DNA from: Somniosus microcephalus
Taxonomy: Eukaryota
DNA length: 64,000 bases
Assembly (NCBI GenBank): GCA_052327205.1
Contig: CM126226.1
Coordinates: forward strand, 31,310,001-31,374,000
Direction of reading: 5' to 3'
The notes below the pieces were generated by a model. That model was not told where the DNA came from and did no database searches. It worked only from the letters and a program-made list of their open reading frames with translations. Made by a program: the position numbers and the translations under genes. Positions 52,801-60,319 of this stretch are shown here, one piece after another. Position 1 is the first letter of the stretch. Each line of letters starts with the position of its first letter.

Positions 52801-54495
52801 TCTTTGCCCCATCTCTCAAATTTTCCTGCTCCTACACCCCCCCCCCCCCCCCCCCAACCCCACCAGGGGAACAAGTCAACCATTGATGGAACTGAGGTCC
52901 TTGTCCTGCCCAGCAATATTTAAATTAGTTGACTTTGGTATTTCTGATTGGTCCACCCATGGGTCAGTCGGTGGTTAGAAGCCTCACTCTGCTGTATTTT
53001 CAGCAATGGTTCAGGGACCCATGAATTTGTTACCAAGGAATAAATATAATTGGATTTTCAGAAACCATTTAAGAGAATTGGGGAGACCTGGTAGCCAGAT
53101 TATATAATCAGTGACAAATTTACAGAAGCATCTCCCAATATAAAGGCAGATTTAGGACTTTATAATAGCAAAAAATTGGCACACACAAAATCACAACAGG
53201 AAGTGCATGCAGCCAAATGTATATTCTAGGTAAATAGATAGATGCTTCCTAATTTAGGTTCTATTTAATGTTTTTATGTAAGGAAGCATTTGTGCAATGG
53301 CAACAACAACTACTTACATTTATATAGTGCCCTTAACGTAATAAAACGTCCCAAGGCGCTTCACAGAAGCGTTATCAGAAAACAAAATTTGACACCTAGC
53401 CGCACAAGATGTTAGGGCAAAAGCTTGGTCAAAGAGATAGGTTTTAAGGAGCGCTATTATAATATTATATAACAAGAAGTGTTATAATAACTGAATGACA
53501 CTTACTATTCTGTCTTTCTTAGATGCCATTACAGTAATTTGGCATTTTCCCTCCTGGCTCACATCCTGGCCAATAAAGTTGTTGGATCAGACTATCAACG
53601 CTGGATTACTGAGAATATTTTAACTAAAATAGGAATGGAGCACACTGGATTTGAGTTTACACTATCCGTCCGATCTCAGCTAGCGGTCGGTGTTTACAGC
53701 AATGGCCAACCAGCCCAGCTTTACGACCTTGGCTGGTACCGACCCTCTGGCCAAATGTATTCGACCGCTGCCGATCTGGCAAAGTTGGCTATGGTGCTTT
53801 TGGGAGCTATTCACAAACACCTTCTGCAGCCTGACGCCATAAAAATGATGCTTACGCCGGTATTCAGGTGTTCTGAGGATTACTTTGCCAGCAAGACAGG
53901 AACACCGTGGGAAATCAATGAACTATTTGGTTATGATATCATTAAGAAAGATGGCGACTTGGACGGTTACTCGGCTACGTTTTCCCTGGTTCCTGAACTC
54001 AAATTAGGATTCATTATTTTGATGTCAGGTTCCCGACCCCAAGAGGAAGACTTGACTGCGGGAGTTTATAATTATCTAATACCTGCGATGGAGTCTGCCT
54101 TCCGACAAAGCAACAAGGTTCTTTCTCCGCCTCCTCACTCGAAGCCTTATGTCGGTTACTATACATTTGCAAACTTGACCTTTTATGAGATAAAGAAAGA
54201 TGAGAATGGAGTATTAGTGATGCAGCAGTTTGGCCCTCATATTGAAACCTTGATACCTGAGAGATATAGGACTATCAAGCTATGTTATTTAGAAGAGAGG
54301 GTATTTCAAATTGTATTTGAAAAAGAATATCCATGTGTCTTGAAATTCAGCACAGCTTCAGTATCACTTGAAGCTCAAGATGGACAGCTGTTTAATTTTT
54401 TTCAGTTCAATAGAAAAGGCCTATCTACTGGCTTTGATGCTCCGGGTCTCAATACATATAATATCCTCCGAATAAGTCGGAAACCAAGATTTTGA
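40294..54495 (+). CDS. LACTBL1: Putative beta-lactamase-like protein (LACTBL1-like, serine hydrolase/PBP fold, N-terminal signal anchor), join(40294-40399,41189-41298,45171-45328,48661-48908,49914-50019,53523-54495), 1701 nt, 566 aa; may be extended N-terminally
   Basis: Six GT-AG exons in a continuous frame. N-terminus MDLKWPHLGMAFFILVSITMTCCFVWQYKLPK is hydrophobic; MCPRHPKPVPL follows; motif 1 YRIASISK (SxxK); LKRMASQLSGLPR; motif 2 CHYSNLAFSLL (YxN); PSGQMYSTAADLAKL; motif 3 KKDGDLDGYS. Ortholog versus paralog of human LACTBL1 is not resolved. Confidence 0.88.
40467..40912 (-). mobile_element. Deu-domain SINE, full length
   Basis: Reverse-complement homolog of 25651-26100. Confidence 0.75.
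41189..41298 (+). CDS. LACTBL1-like exon (110 nt)
   Basis: tttacttcag|GT GAA TTT ... CTA GAA AAG|gttagt; encodes EPKPVQMCPRHPKPVPLVHPMPILKEALEK. Confidence 0.9.
42175..42590 (+). mobile_element. CR1 3' fragment
   Basis: SRTRGHSLRIRGRPFKTEMRRNFFTQRVVNLWNSLP; cttatgtt tail. Confidence 0.9.
42977..43348 (+). mobile_element. Deu-domain SINE, 5'-truncated
   Basis: Homologous to 25737-26100. Confidence 0.75.
44010..44450 (-). mobile_element. LINE-derived 3' end of another family (shorter relatives near 9410-9560 and 41815-41875)
   Basis: Recurrent ggatgtgggcatcgctggcaag...gcccatccctaattgcccttgag motif; clade not determined. Confidence 0.5.
45171..45328 (+). CDS. LACTBL1-like exon (158 nt)
   Basis: ctctttcag|GTT GAC TTT ... 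GCT TAC AG|gtaact; encodes LPSISAIVIYNDTVLWTGNFGKRN. Confidence 0.9.
46861..47495. mobile_element. Two adjacent Deu-domain SINE fragments in opposite orientation
   Basis: 46861-47100 on the - strand and 47110-47495 on the + strand. Confidence 0.7.
48661..48908 (+). CDS. LACTBL1-like exon (248 nt; catalytic SxxK)
   Basis: cttgtttcag|G ATC GCA AGC ATT TCC AAG ... CTG TCA G|gtgagg. Confidence 0.92.
49200..49381 (+). mobile_element. Short young CR1 3' end
   Basis: Nearly identical to the reverse complement of 7024-7205. Confidence 0.85.
49426..49705. mobile_element. MITE-like element; inverted relative at about 39290-39445
   Basis: Imperfect termini GGGCCCACATTTGCT and AGTAAACTTGGCCAC; internal sequence is the reverse complement of 39290-39445. 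Confidence 0.45.
49914..50019 (+). CDS. LACTBL1-like exon (106 nt)
   Basis: ggtttgcag|GG TTA CCC AGG CGA ... GGC ACA AG|gttgga. Confidence 0.9.
51100..52415 (-). mobile_element. Relic of a Harbinger-type Myb/SANT (NAIF1-like) accessory gene
   Basis: Pieces RAAKFSEGDV, (ttcag)EKIARNSRVRR...GG...RPLT, acidic EEEEE; intron-like breaks; degraded. Confidence 0.4.
52415..52770 (-). mobile_element. CR1 3' fragment
   Basis: EMRRNFFAQRVVNLWNSLPQRAV; (ACATAAGA)n tail. Confidence 0.88.
53300..53455 (-). mobile_element. L2 3' end fragment
   Basis: (CAA)n tail; reverse complement of 38205-38375. Confidence 0.7.
53523..54495 (+). CDS. LACTBL1-like last coding exon (YSN and KDG motifs, stop TGA)
   Basis: tctttcttag|A TGC CAT TAC AGT AAT ...; matches the 318-aa ORF 53539-54495. 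Confidence 0.93.
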
Positions 54496-55517
54496 GATTT
54501 GACAATAGACTGTGGAGCCATTATGGGAACATTTGAAAAGCCACTTTATTTATAGAGTTGGGAACATAAGAAATTCTCGAAAAAGGGCCATTTGGCCTAT
54601 CGCACCTCCTCCATGCAGAGACCGTTTATGCTTACTCTATCGTGGGCTGCCACCATCTGTTGGTCCCCTATTTTACAGAACACACTGGCTTGGAATTTCC
54701 TCGGAGCAGCTCCCGCCCCCCCCCCGACGTGACTTCGGGTGAAGTAACAGCGGTGGAATAGCAGCAACGCCCAGCAGGAAATTCCCAGCCTGTATCTCTT
54801 TCACTTCCTCCTCAGGTGAAAAGTGCTGCTAAAATCTGTATAACCATCGAGCATTATTCTCAACAGATATCAATCTGGCTCCCTCTTAAATGTGTCAATT
54901 GGTCCTGAATCAACTACCATCTCTGGGGGTCTGTTCCAAGTAGACAGCAAATGAACACTCCCAATGAGCATAAGCTTTCTCTTTGTGCTTGTCTTTTAGT
55001 GTCATTTTGTTCTGCAAGGTAAGTCATGATAGGTAGTAAAATAGTGAAGTTTGGCTTTAAATACCACTGCTTGTAGAGTACCTTTGGCTAACAGAGGATC
55101 AAATCCATTCCCATTTGTGCTGGTGCTCTCACTTGCAATGGTCAGCACATTTTCATTGTAAACCATCAGATTCAAAGTAAATTTTCTTCAGTACTTCACA
55201 GGCAGCAAGCAGCTCCACAATTCGCTGTGCATATCTCAGCTACACAGTAACATGGTAATGTTTTGGGCAGGAGAAGATCAGTGTCTCCCGATCTAGCCTA
55301 CCCTTCCAAACCTCCCATCAGATTTCTTACTGTGATTCTATAATGAATTACCCTGAATCCTCTAACTGCGAACAGGAATTCATCCAGTTCTTTTTAAAAC
55401 CTGCCATGGTTTTCTGTTCAACTCTGCTGGTAATCTTGTCCACATTTCTACCACCCTCCTACTAAAAAAAAATGTTGCCTAATTTCTTTTGATACCCTTA
55501 ACTCTAAATTGTGTTCC

Positions 55518-55752
55518 TGATGCGCTATCAATTACTCATAAAAGACTGAGAGTTAGAAGAGTAACTAAAGGCTTTTATTAACAACAGAATGGAGGTCTGC
55601 CTCGCGTGGTCGACCGGTCCAGGATACAAAGGGCTGGGGAGCAGTCACCTTTATACTAGGACCTGTGGGAGGAGTCAGCCGAGGCATGTCCAGGCATGTA
55701 CACAGTGGAATACAAACAGGACAAACAGGAATACAAACAGTGGTTTACCACA
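55518..55752 (-). repeat. 3' LTR
   Basis: Matches 59637-59871 except A55692 versus G59811. Confidence 0.96.
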
Positions 55753-55794
55753 TTCACCCCTTGTTTAAAATTGAGTCCGGCGGGGTGAAGTGTA

Positions 55795-58700
55795 TTAAAA
55801 GTTAGTGTATTGGAGTCTCTCCGGAGGTCTTGTCTGCCACTGTGATCGGCGTGGCGACGACAGGGGTAGTGAAGCTTCTGGCGTCGAGTCCAGCGTAGGC
55901 TGTGGCACAGGCGTGTCATCCTCGTAGATGTCGAGCGGATCGCGGGGCCCAGGCCTGCTGTCTGCTGGGGCTGGATATCGGATCGTGGGGGGGGGTGGTA
56001 GTGGGTAGTGGGTTACTGCGGCCCCCGAGGGTGCAAGGTCTCTTATGGAGACTGTGTCCTCCCGCCCGTCCGGGTATGCGATGTAAGCATACTGGGGGTT
56101 GGCGTGGAGGAGGTCGACCCTCTCGACCAGGGGGTCCGTTTTATGGGTCCTCACGTGTCTTCTCAGTAGGACCGGCCCTGGGGACGTCAGCCATGGCGGT
56201 AGCGATGTCCCCGATGTGGACTTCCTTGGGAAGACAAACATTTTCTCATGAGGGGTGGCGTTAGTGGCAGTGCAGAGCAGTGACCGAATAGAGTGGAGCG
56301 CATCGGGGAGCACATCCTGCCAGCGGGAGGTTGGAAGGCCCCTAGACTTTAAGGCTAGCAGGACGGCCTTCCAAACTGTCGCATTTTCTCTTTCCACCTG
56401 TCCGTTCCCCCGGGGGTTGTAACTGGTGGTCCTGCTTGTGGCAATACCCCTAGTTAGCAGGTACTGACGGAGTTCGTCGCTCATAAACGATGAGCCCCGG
56501 TCGCTATGGATATAGCTGGGGAAGCCGAACAGGGTGAAGAGGTTGTTCAGACATTTAATGACCGTGGCACTGGTCATGTCCGGGCAGGGGAAGGCGAACG
56601 GGAAATGGGAGTACTCATCAATAATATTGAGGAAGTACACATTGCAGTCGGAGGAGGGGAGAGGCCCTTTAAAATCAACGCTCAGGCGCTCGAAGGGGCG
56701 AGTGGCTTTTATCAGGTGGGCCCTGTCTGGTCTATAAAAGTGCGGTTTGCACTCAGCGCAGACTTGGCAGTTCCTGGTCATGGTCCTGACCTCCTCAATA
56801 GAGTAAGGCAGGTTGCGGGCCTTGATGAGGTGGAAGAACCTGGTGACCCCCGGGTGGCAGAGGTCATTGTGGAGGGCCCGCAGTCTATCGATCTGCGCGC
56901 TGGCGCAGGTGCCACGCGATAGCGCATCCGGGGGTTCATTTAGCTTCCCGGGCCGGTACAAGATCTCGTAGTTGTAGGTGGAAAGTTCGATTCTCCACCT
57001 CAAGATCTTGTCATTTTTGATTTTGCCCCTCTGCTTGTTGTTAAACATAAAAGCAACTGAACGCTGGTCAGTGAGCAGGGTAAATCGTTTTCCGGCCAGG
57101 TAGTGCCTCCAATGACGCACAGCCTCCACAATCGCCTGGGCCTCCTTCTCAACAGCGGAGTGTCTGGTCTCCGGGCCTTGGAGGGTTCATGAAAAGAAGG
57201 CCACGGGTCTCCCTGCCTGATTGAGGGTAGCGGCCAGGGCAAAGTCGGACGCGTCGCTTTCCACCTGGAAGGGGATGGATTCGTCCACCGCGTGCATGGT
57301 GGCTTTGGCAATGTCCTCCTTGATACGGTGGAAGGCTAAGCGGGCCTCTGCCGTCAAGGGAAAAGAGGTGGACTTGATCAGCGGACGGGCCTTGTCCGCA
57401 TAGTAGGGGACCCACTGGGCGTAATAGGAGAAAAACCCTAGGCACCTCTTCAGGGCCTTGAGGCAGTGGGGCAGTGGAAGTTCCATAAGGGGACGCATCC
57501 GGTCGGGGTCGGGGCCGATGACTCCGTGTTCCACAACACAGCCAAGGATGGCGAGGCGGTTTGTGCGGAATATGCACTTCTCCTTGTTATATGTCAGGTT
57601 TAGGAGTTGGGCGGTGCGGAGGAATTTTTCGAGGTTTGCGTCATGGTCCTGCAAGTCACGGCTGCAGATGGTCACATTGTCCAGATATGGGAAAGTGGCC
57701 TGCAACGCATTTTGATCTACCATCCGGTCCATCTCCCTTTGGAAGACGGAGACCCCGTTGGTGATGCCAAAGGGAACCCTAAGGAAGTGATAGAGGCGGC
57801 CGTTTGCCTCAAAGGCAGTGTACTGGCGGTCCTCAGGGCGGATGAGGAGCTGGTGGTACGCTGATTTCAGGTCAATGGTCGAGAAGACGCGGTACTGCGC
57901 GATCTGGTTGACCATGTCAGCTATACGGGGGAGTGGGTAGGCGTCCAGCAGGGTGTAGCGATTTATTGTCTGGCTGTAGTCGATGACCAGGCGCTGCTTC
58001 TCGCCGGTCTTAACGACCACAACCTGGGCTCGCCAGGGGCTGGTGCTGCCCTCAATAATCCCTTCTTTCAGGAGCCGCTCCACTTCGGTTTTAATGAAAA
58101 CCCTGTCCCCGGCACTGTATCGCCTGCTCTTTGTGGCGATGGGCTTACAGTCGGGGGTGAGGTTAGCAAACAGTGGTGGGGGGGTGACTCTGAGTGTGGA
58201 GAGGTTGCACCTGGTGCGTGGCGGGCAGTTTGGAAGCTGCTGGCTGCGGACTGTGAGTGGGGGGAGGGGTCCACCGTACGCCATCGTAACACTTTTAAGG
58301 TGGCACTGAAAATCTAACCCCAGCAGGACGGCAGCGCAGAGGTCAGGCAGGACCAGAAGTTTAAAATGATCGTACACGGTCCCGTCTACTACGAGTGTCA
58401 CCACGCAGTAGCCGCCGATGTCCGCCGACTGGGACTCGGAGGCCATAGAAATCCGCTGTTGCGCAGGCAGGACTGGGAGAGAGCAACGCCGCACCGTGTC
58501 GGGGTGGATGAAGCTCTCCGTGCTCCCAGAGTCAAAAAGGCAGATTGTATCGTGACCATTTACCTTAATGTCCATTGCGGAACTGGCCAGTTGGTGCGGT
58601 CTCGCTTGGTCCAGTGTAACGGATGCCAGCGTAGGGGTCGGTGTGTCGCTGCGGGTATCAGATGAGGCGGTGTCGGGGGCCTGCTGCGTCCCGGCTGTCG

Positions 58701-59613
58701 TCCAAGATGGCGGCGTCCATGATCCCCATGTGGCTGGAGGCGTCCAAAATGGCTGCAGTACCGGTGATTCGCACATGGCCGGGGAGGTCCAAGATGGCGG
58801 CCCGCATGGCCCACACGCGGTGCTGCTGGGGTTCGGGGTGGCTTTGGCCCTGCAGACGCTAGCATAGTGTCCCTTCTTCCCGCAGCCCGAGCAGATCGCG
58901 TTTTTTGCCAGGCAGCGCGCTCTGGGGTGTTTTGCCTGGCCACAGAAGTAGCATTTCTGGCCTTGGGGCACTGCTGCGGTAGTTGGGCCATTGTTGGGGT
59001 GTGGCTGGGGTGGCACGGCGCTATGAGGCGGTCCTACCGTGTCCCAGGCTGTCATTCCCCGCGGCGTCCACGGTGCAGAGGAGTAGGCATCCATGCCCTG
59101 GTAGGCTGCATCCAACGATAGTGCGAGTTCAGAGGCCTTGTTGAGGTCGAGGTTACTCTGCTCCAACAGTCGCTGTCGGGTGTAATTGGATCTGTGGCCC
59201 GCTACAAAAGCGTCCCGGATAAGTTCCTCTGTGTACACGGCGGCCTTTACATCCTTACAACCACAGGCCCGGCCAAGCACAGACAGTGCCTGAAGGTATT
59301 CCACGGTCGATTCCCCAGGTTGTTGTTTACGACTCCCCAGGAGGTGCCTGGCGTACACTTCGTTCACTGGGCGCGTGTACTGGTCCTTGAGGAGCTTGAT
59401 AGCGTCCGCGTACGAGGTCGCGTCTTGGATGACCGAGTACACTCGGTGGTTCACTTTGGAGGTCAGGACATCCAGTTTGTCCTCGTCCGATTTGATTGCT
59501 TCGGAGGCGGTCAGGAATTTTTCGAAACACTTAAGCCAGTGAGTAAACTTGGTGGATGAGTCCGCCTCCCGATGATCTAAGTCCAGGCATGCTGGTGTGA
59601 GGATCTTCTCCAT
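55795..59613 (-). pseudogene. gag-pol polyprotein (1272 codons) with one in-frame premature TGA at 57187-57189
   Basis: ORFs 57187-59613 and 55795-57129 share a frame. Gag CYFCGQAKHPRARC and CSGCGKKGHYASVC; protease LFDSGS; RT FSTIDLKSAYHQ, PFGITN, YLDN; RNase H VESDASD...GRPVAFFS*TL...EKEA...TDQ...DALSR; integrase H-H-C-C, SVDFKGP, HSDRG, NGQVER. Confidence 0.93.
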
Positions 59614-59636
59614 TATAAAAATGTTGTTAATAAAAT

Positions 59637-59871
59637 TGATGCGCTATCAATTACTCATAAAAGACTGAGAGTTAGAAGAGTAACTAAAGGCTTTTATTAA
59701 CAACAGAATGGAGGTCTGCCTCGCGTGGTCGACCGGTCCAGGATACAAAGGGCTGGGGAGCAGTCACCTTTATACTAGGACCTGTGGGAGGAGTCAGCCG
59801 AGGCATGTCCGGGCATGTACACAGTGGAATACAAACAGGACAAACAGGAATACAAACAGTGGTTTACCACA
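59637..59871 (-). repeat. 5' LTR (TATAAA 59769-59774, AATAAA 59693-59698 on the - strand)
   Basis: Direct repeat of 55518-55752; - strand reads TGTGGTAAAC...GATAGCGCATCA. Confidence 0.96.
59801..59820. promoter_or_regulatory. p53-family response element in the LTR U3 (second copy at 55682-55701)
   Basis: AGGCATGTCC GGGCATGTAC, two abutting RRRCWWGYYY half-sites, 19/20 match. Confidence 0.6.
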
Positions 59872-60319
59872 GTTCCCTCGTCCTTAAATTCTGTACCTGA
59901 CACAAGAAGTTTCTGGATCTAATTTCTCGCTATCCCTGAAAATTTTACGGACCTTATCAAGTCCTCGCTCATTCTCCTCTTCACAAGACACTAAAGTCCC
60001 TGGGTAGACAATCTTTCCTCATAAACCAGCTCTCTAAGTTCAGGAATCAGCCTCGTGCCTCCCCGTCCCCTGGATTTCCTCAAATAACTCCCTATCTTTT
60101 CTGTAATGTGGAGAACAAAGCTGAATAAAATACTTCAGATGAAATCTCACCTGATAAAGCACCCCTGCCACTATCCCAACATTTTATTTGCTTTCTTAAC
60201 TGACTACAAACACTGAACTGGCAATTTTAATTACCTAAATGAAAGAATGAACTTGTATTTATATAGCGCCTCTCGCGTCCTTGGGACATCCCAAAGTATT
60301 TCACTGCCACTGTTATAAT

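What the first reader, a model, noticed from the sequence alone, without database searches (positions are those of the whole stretch)
59608..59713. The same duplex would hide both the 5' LTR poly(A) signal and the gag AUG
Seen: beyond the 14-bp helix and a 1x7 internal loop, CTCCATT in R (59707-59713) pairs with AATGGAG (59608-59614), which contains the start codon. The AATAAA (59693-59698) lies inside the 14-bp helix. The partner strand exists only downstream of the 5' LTR, so the 3' LTR signal stays free. Inference: a compact switch that suppresses premature polyadenylation and toggles translation versus packaging or priming, reminiscent of the HIV-1 polyA hairpin and U5:AUG pairing.
Basis: partly seen in the sequence, partly recalled or inferred. 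Interest (0 to 1): 0.7.

Follow-up and report, generated by a model that had tools for sequence, protein, structure and literature searches.

The report
Self-priming retrotransposon masks its poly(A) signal
This jumping gene, like about thirty distant relatives, has no tRNA primer site but a stretch that is complementary to its own poly(A) signal, so it likely starts copying itself with a piece of its own RNA and is predicted to hide that signal at its front end; the extra pairing over the start codon is not conserved.

Summary
The pairings are real. They lie in a young 4,354-bp Ty3/Gypsy element (minus strand, 55518-59871) in a shark-like genome. The 14-nt partner strand starts one base after the LTR end, where a tRNA primer site should be. 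In 31 of 38 Gag-defined families it pairs perfectly for 11-18 bp with its own LTR (0.35% of shuffles do), with 28 different arm sequences. The three closest subfamilies swap one pair G:C, T:A, C:G (38 of 40 copies paired). This is the signature of Tf1-type self-priming, in a lineage apart from Tf1/sushi: no chromodomain, RT about 30% identical. Unlike Tf1, the arm ends at the poly(A) hexamer, about 40-50 nt into the transcript, and a conserved stem follows it. Folding supports masking of AAUAAA in the 5' LTR only. The AUG helix is real here and kept in close copies, but across families it is no better than cross-family controls (p 0.12-0.68) and weakens in longer folds. Cleavage and priming are inferred, not shown. 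This scan noted the same clade earlier in five findings from other genomes; ten literature searches found no description.

The parts
55518..59871 (-). Whole Ty3/Gypsy LTR retrotransposon, 4,354 bp, TG...CA ends, 5-bp target duplication GGAAC (59872-59876 and 55513-55517)
59637..59871 (-). 5' LTR, 235 bp, one difference from the 3' LTR
59769..59774 (-). TATA box; implies a transcription start near 59744 (inferred from the usual spacing of about 30 nt, recalled)
   Evidence: RNA depth falls over 59705-59749
59707..59713 (-). CTCCATT, complementary to the start-codon segment; family-specific
59692..59705 (-). LTR arm: inferred self-primer end; holds AATAAA (59693-59698)
59678..59691 (-). 5' strand of a stem that starts right after the arm (GCC...) and is predicted to pair with 59641-59656; the arm/stem junction 59692|59691 is the inferred cut site
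59641..59656 (-). 3' strand of that stem, in U5
59622..59635 (-). Primer-binding-site position: 14 nt complementary to the LTR arm, one base (A, 59636) after the LTR end; no TGG
59608..59614 (-). AATGGAG with the gag start codon (59613-59611)
57187..59613 (-). gag (two CCHC-type knuckles seen in the translation), protease, RT (motif YLDN), start of RNase H; ends at a premature stop (57187-57189) in this copy
55795..57186 (-). Rest of RNase H and integrase, same frame; no chromodomain or SH3_Tf2-1 match
55753..55766 (-). Polypurine tract before the 3' LTR
   Evidence: conserved in relatives
55518..55752 (-). 3' LTR; its AATAAA has no 14-nt partner downstream

Best explanation
The 14 nt right after the 5' LTR are complementary to the LTR's own poly(A)-signal segment, and this duplex likely serves as a Tf1-type self-priming structure, in which the RNA would be cut just after AAUAAAA and the freed end would prime reverse transcription without a tRNA. 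Shown: complementarity, fixed register, compensation across families, no tRNA-type site. Inferred: the transcript starts near 59744 and folds back; a second stem beginning at GCC stacks on the duplex and marks the cut; the element's RNase H makes the cut, by analogy with Tf1; RT copies U5 and the remaining 25 or so nt of R and jumps to the 3' end. Because the arm contains the hexamer, the same duplex is predicted to mask the 5' poly(A) signal while the 3' copy stays open, a likely second benefit. The AUG helix is a local extension of this family group with no shown function.
For: 31 of 38 Gag clusters have a perfect 11-18 bp helix against 0.35% of 1,140 shuffles. It starts exactly CA+1 in 28 of 31, and 0 of 31 have TGG. 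28 different 12-nt arms among 30 families. Three-way swap G:C 11, T:A 14, C:G 13, mismatch 2 among 40 close copies. The helix and register persist in 7 of 31 families with no recognisable hexamer, which points to position and not only to masking. RCC follows the arm in 26 of 31 and is paired inside the loop more than in shuffles (0.68 vs 0.29, 25 of 31, p 6e-6). The criterion of 10 bp or more starting 0-5 nt after the LTR is the published one for predicting self-primers (PMC6317226, passages). The family is young and abundant (5,448 5' junctions match one pattern), so it must prime somehow.
Against: No cut, primer or strong-stop cDNA was observed. The arm is not at the 5' end of the RNA as in Tf1: TATA lies 69-71 nt before it in 5 of 6 families of this genome, and read ends at 59723 and 59734 lie upstream of it. 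7 of 38 clusters lack an 11-bp helix (3 keep 7-9 bp in register, 4 show none). Cluster representatives were the copies with the longest helix, while the shuffles had no best-of choice. The loop can be as short as 24 nt (L165), leaving little R for strand transfer. The LTR end was fixed by an LTR pair in only 9 clusters, elsewhere by the CA. No tRNA set was at hand to exclude priming by tRNA fragments.
Confidence: 0.8

Rival explanations
1. The duplex exists chiefly to mask the 5' poly(A) signal; priming happens by another, unknown route.
For: Canonical hexamer at the arm end in 21 of 31 families, a common variant in 3 more; predicted opening cost 8.4 kcal/mol in the 5' context against 0.1-1.0 in the 3' context; precedent in the HIV-1 polyA hairpin (PMC3432602, passages).
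Against: Masking needs no single-base register to the LTR end, yet 28 of 31 have it; 7 of 31 keep the helix with no recognisable hexamer; no other primer site is present; the hexamer is predicted open (0.82) until about 60 more nt are made.
Confidence: 0.08
2. One reading: one extended duplex hides both AAUAAA and the gag AUG and toggles translation against packaging or priming.
For: 7 Watson-Crick pairs in this copy, reached by 0 of 500 base shuffles; small clade excess in that test (p 0.021 and 0.048). Kept at 7 bp in 36 of 40 close copies, 25 of them through a U-G wobble, and in 30 of 30 copies of this subfamily.
Against: Own-family pairing equals cross-family pairing (duplex energy 6.69 vs 6.80, p 0.61; WC+GU p 0.60; WC p 0.12; 29 families). 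Ensemble test 0.445 vs 0.416, p 0.67 (30 families). Pair probability drops to 0.18 in a longer fold. No two-sided compensation seen; 4 of 40 close copies lose the outer pair. The ATG lies from -1 to 62 nt from the arm across families. In a scanned leader the ribosome must melt the 14-bp helix before it reaches the AUG anyway (inference).
Confidence: 0.12
3. Priming in trans or by circularisation: the same arm, supplied by the RNA's 3' R or by a short transcript ended in an LTR, anneals to the site and is trimmed to a primer.
For: Both LTRs carry the arm; it would leave the whole 5' R for strand transfer, which suits families with very short loops.
Against: The 5' arm is only 56 nt away and is predicted paired at 0.98; no precedent in the papers read.
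Confidence: 0.07
4. Chance pairing of A/T-rich sequence.
For: The arms are A/T-rich.
Against: 0 of 1,140 shuffles reach 14 bp; compensation.
Confidence: 0.01

Closest known systems
Tf1/Tf2 (Schizosaccharomyces pombe), Tj1 and the Tf1/sushi group of chromoviruses
   Same: Site right after the 5' LTR is complementary to the element's own R instead of a tRNA; extra helices flank the central duplex (PMC7175516, PMC10085805, PMC4600332, passages).
   Different: In Tf1 the primer is the first 11 bases, cut between 11 and 12; here the arm is 11-18 nt, about 40-50 nt into the transcript, and ends at the poly(A) hexamer. No chromodomain or SH3_Tf2-1; CCHC-type knuckles; RT motif YxDN. Chromodomain-type elements of the same genome have an 11-bp arm about 150 nt before the LTR end and RT only 29-32% identical.
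TAR lineage Ty1/copia elements (Houba, Osr-1) and Tcn1 clade of plants
   Same: Self-priming predicted from LTR complementarity outside yeast Tf1 (PMC6317226, passages).
   Different: Copia or chromovirus, in plants; no link to the poly(A) signal in the passages seen.
HIV-1 polyA hairpin and U5-AUG duplex
   Same: RNA structure masks AAUAAA at the 5' end (PMC3432602, passages).
   Different: The HIV hairpin is local and its stability is balanced to work at both ends; here the partner exists only at the 5' end. HIV primes with tRNA (recalled). The AUG pairing here is not conserved.
Mag lineage of Ty3/Gypsy (A, B, C clades)
   Same: Small animal elements with short LTRs and mostly 5-bp target duplications (PMC3286476, passages); twin CCHC knuckles are typical of Mag (recalled).
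   Different: Mosquito Mag elements use tRNA-Leu, -Ser or -Arg sites. No named reference sequence was at hand, so placement is untested.

Membership tests
Ty3/Gypsy LTR retrotransposon | Domain order PR-RT-RH-IN between two LTRs, with PPT and target duplication | tested here: met
   best solved-structure match Ty3 RT, E 1.5e-35
Self-priming LTR elements (works like Tf1) | 10 bp or more of complementarity between the LTR and the bases 0-5 nt after it | tested here: met
   14 bp at offset 1; 31 of 38 clusters
Self-priming LTR elements (works like Tf1) | No site complementary to a tRNA 3' end (TGG start) | tested here: met
   0 of 31; internal tRNA fragments not tested
Self-priming LTR elements (works like Tf1) | Helices flanking the primer duplex | tested here: inconclusive
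   A stem right after the arm is conserved by prediction; the three-duplex pretzel of Tf1 was not shown
Self-priming LTR elements (works like Tf1) | RNase H cuts the RNA duplex and the fragment primes cDNA | not testable with these tools
   needs particle RNA and cDNA ends
Tf1/sushi group (membership) | Chromodomain at the integrase end | tested here: not met
   none in this integrase or four full-length relatives at E 0.1; found in L205 of the same genome, E 7e-5
Tf1/sushi group (membership) | RT groups with chromoviruses | tested here: not met
   14 clade rows and 12 SH3_Tf2-1 rows split 100/100, 29-32% identity; only two groups in the tree, no named Tf1 or sushi sequence
Tf1/sushi group (membership) | Primer is the very 5' end of the transcript | tested here: inconclusive
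   TATA spacing and read ends put the start about 40 nt upstream of the arm; no cap mapping
Mag lineage | RT/RH/IN phylogeny with Mag, SURL or CFG1 | not tested
   no reference sequences available; motif look-ups in supplements found nothing
HIV-type U5:AUG switch | Conserved, covarying pairing that covers the gag AUG | tested here: not met
   small excess only

The most novel reading that the evidence does not exclude
A large animal-wide Gypsy lineage outside the Tf1/sushi group uses its poly(A) signal as the 3' end of a self-primer. One helix silences polyadenylation in the 5' LTR and, once cut at the A|RCC junction between two stacked helices, yields a capped primer of about 50 nt. One RNA element would thus solve two classic LTR problems, with an RT that carries YxDN in place of YxDD.
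Probability: 0.45. Interest if true: 0.72.

Novelty: new variant of a known kind. Interest (0 to 1): 0.52.

Why it matters
Self-priming is proven only for Tf1 and is treated as a trait of the Tf1/sushi group and a few plant lineages. This lineage has relatives in sharks and rays, cnidarians, echinoderms, crustaceans, insects and nematodes (protein names; the helix was checked in this genome and in metagenome contigs). It would widen tRNA-free priming among animals and tie it to 3'-end processing. Dozens of natural compensatory variants define the primer end to the base, so the cut site can be tested by end mapping. Finders that require a tRNA site would miss or mislabel these elements (inference). 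The AUG switch alone would be a modest, family-level feature.

Tried and rejected
AUG switch as a clade feature: three tests; two negative, one weakly positive and explained by base composition once cross-family controls were used. Viral contig scan: no relative. Two diverse Gag alignments were too variable for the locus scan. RVT_1 search of the genome gave RT matches that I took for non-LTR elements by their length and did not follow. No indexed RNA holder listed; two raw-read runs found by species label were laid instead. They show transcription, mostly sense in the body, but no sharp start and no poly(A) junction among the loose ends listed (more rows were not shown). Chimera test for the strand-transfer zone: 7 LTRs mix two subfamilies, but in 7 of 7 the partner LTR differs, so they look like conversion patches or recombinants and say nothing on priming. 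Clade naming failed: no paper links YLDN to a retrotransposon clade, and supplements gave no motif hit (one file of PMC6238403 is a picture and could bear on the clade). The original Tf1 papers and a review were not held. An alternative 7-bp hairpin across the LTR end (59634-59652) is seen in the sequence but is not in the minimum-energy fold; not pursued. One search read a wrong frame and was replaced.

Full report
1. What is there. The finding lies at the 5' end of a minus-strand Ty3/Gypsy element, 55518-59871, with 235-bp LTRs that differ at one base and a GGAAC target duplication. It encodes Gag, protease, RT, RNase H and integrase in one frame, broken by a premature stop in this copy. The genome is 6.4 Gb; the closest named proteins come from sharks and rays. 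One pattern matches 5,448 5' junctions of the closest subfamilies.

2. The observation. All coordinates hold. The fold of 59745-59590 has the 14-bp helix, the 1x7 loop and the 7-bp AUG helix (z -3.88). Among 30 close copies, the window's own included, the 14-bp helix is intact in 27 and both AUG strands in 30. The 3' arm begins one base after the LTR's final CA, which is the primer-binding-site position, and it has no TGG.

3. Conservation of the main helix. I compared 165 loci: the window, 94 loci of this genome and 70 of 80 metagenome loci (5 dropped because the match began deep in Gag, 5 for too little upstream DNA). They form 38 Gag clusters, 6 from this genome. Taking the best copy of each, 31 have a perfect helix of 11-18 bp. 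The same search on 1,140 shuffles reached 11 bp in 0.35% and 14 bp never; the shuffles had no best-of choice. Of the other 7, three keep 7-9 bp in register and four show nothing. The arm starts at CA+1 in 28 of 31, none has TGG, and 30 families give 28 different 12-nt arms. In 40 copies that I picked from the first 100 listed, balanced by arm letter and including five odd ones, one pair reads G:C in 11, T:A in 14, C:G in 13 and is mismatched in 2. The helix is under selection for pairing and for register.

4. Relation to the poly(A) signal. The arm ends at AATAAA in 10 families, ATTAAA in 11, a common variant in 3 (variant list recalled) and no recognisable hexamer in 7; the last ten have no canonical hexamer nearby. 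Folding gives the hexamer a 1e-6 chance of being open in the 5' context, 0.21-0.79 in the 3' LTR and 0.82 before the partner is made.

5. A further element. RCC follows the arm in 26 of 31 families and opens a stem inside the loop more often than in shuffles (0.68 vs 0.29; 25 of 31; p 6e-6). In this element the stem is 59691-59678 with 59656-59641, continuing the main helix. RCC may also be plain poly(A)-signal context; the pairing excess suggests more. I read the arm/stem junction as the cut site.

6. The AUG helix. For: 7 Watson-Crick pairs here, unmatched by 500 base shuffles, with a small clade excess in that test (p 0.021, 0.048); kept in 36 of 40 close copies, 25 through a wobble. Against: ensemble pairing 0.445 vs 0.416 in dinucleotide shuffles (30 families, p 0.67); own-family no better than cross-family (29 families; p 0.12-0.68), whereas arm and primer site give 11.45 vs 3.02 kcal/mol, partly by construction; pair probability 0.5 falling to 0.18 with more sequence. 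It is a real but family-level feature.

7. Transcript. Two raw RNA runs with the species label of the best DNA holder show the family expressed, mostly sense in the body. Sense depth in X7 falls from 206 at 59690-59704 to 81 at 59735-59749, with read ends at 59723 and 59734. TATA lies 69-71 nt before the arm in 5 of 6 families of this genome. The arm is therefore probably internal, about nt 40-53. Reads from both LTRs and many copies mix, so this is approximate.

8. Mechanism. Most likely (0.8) the duplex self-primes as in Tf1, where the first 11 bases pair with the site and RNase H cuts after base 11 (PMC7175516, passages; three-duplex structure in PMC10085805, passages). Here the cut would fall after AAUAAAA. 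Masking of the 5' signal is a likely second effect (about even odds that it matters in cells). Cutting, priming and masking are all inferred.

9. Comparison. It works like Tf1 but is not a Tf1/sushi member: no chromodomain, and the SH3_Tf2-1 elements of the same genome are 29-32% identical in RT, split at 100/100, and place their 11-bp arm about 150 nt before the LTR end. A two-group tree cannot show independent origin. The clade could not be named.

10. Novelty. Ten literature searches found no description of self-priming at the poly(A) signal in a non-chromovirus animal Gypsy clade. I saw passages only of 13 papers (PMC3601003, 6934838, 6317226, 3286476, 2836005, 4600332, 7175516, 10085805, 5341516, 8556966, 3432602, 2774666, 5445492), passages of PMC10886601, and supplement hits of PMC6238403 and PMC2836005. 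Subscription journals and Repbase were not searchable; I recall that Repbase entries mention self-primed Gypsy families, unverified. Five earlier notes of this scan report the same clade in other genomes; I had stated my reading before seeing them, and they are not independent support. Added here: the three-way swap, the stem after the arm, the contrast with chromodomain-type elements, and the negative test of the AUG switch.

11. Verdict. Observation confirmed; interpretation partly supported; new variant of a known kind; interest 0.52.

Noticed in passing
window 57187-59613 (-); relatives: The RT catalytic motif is YxDN, not YxDD, in 13 of 14 clade rows, although the families are young and abundant. 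BEL/Pao elements are recalled to have a similar motif.
   Followed up: partly
L205-L216 (G000): Elements with an SH3_Tf2-1 domain (L205 also a chromodomain) carry an 11-bp self-complementary arm about 150 nt before the LTR end in 8 of 12 loci: a second, classical self-priming group in the same genome.
   Followed up: partly
window 53635-54495 (+): Last exon of a host beta-lactamase-like gene (PF00144); the element sits about 1 kb downstream on the other strand.
   Followed up: no
L278-L284: Seven young elements have one LTR with a short patch from a sister subfamily, flanked by their own sequence; looks like gene conversion between subfamilies.
   Followed up: partly
L285 (G000:C1): Both LTR arms are of one subfamily while the primer site has the letter of another; fits copying of the primer into the site, or a point mutation. 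One case.
   Followed up: partly
window 59634-59652 (-): A perfect 7-bp inverted repeat spans the LTR end and the start of the primer site; it could compete with the main helix and is kept in sister families.
   Followed up: no
G000:C10:180705141-180714190: Three Gag matches with equal scores at 4,105-nt spacing: a tandem array of elements.
   Followed up: no
window 59630-59870, run X8: Reads of the opposite orientation exceed sense reads over the LTR, probably from LTRs inside host transcripts.
   Followed up: no
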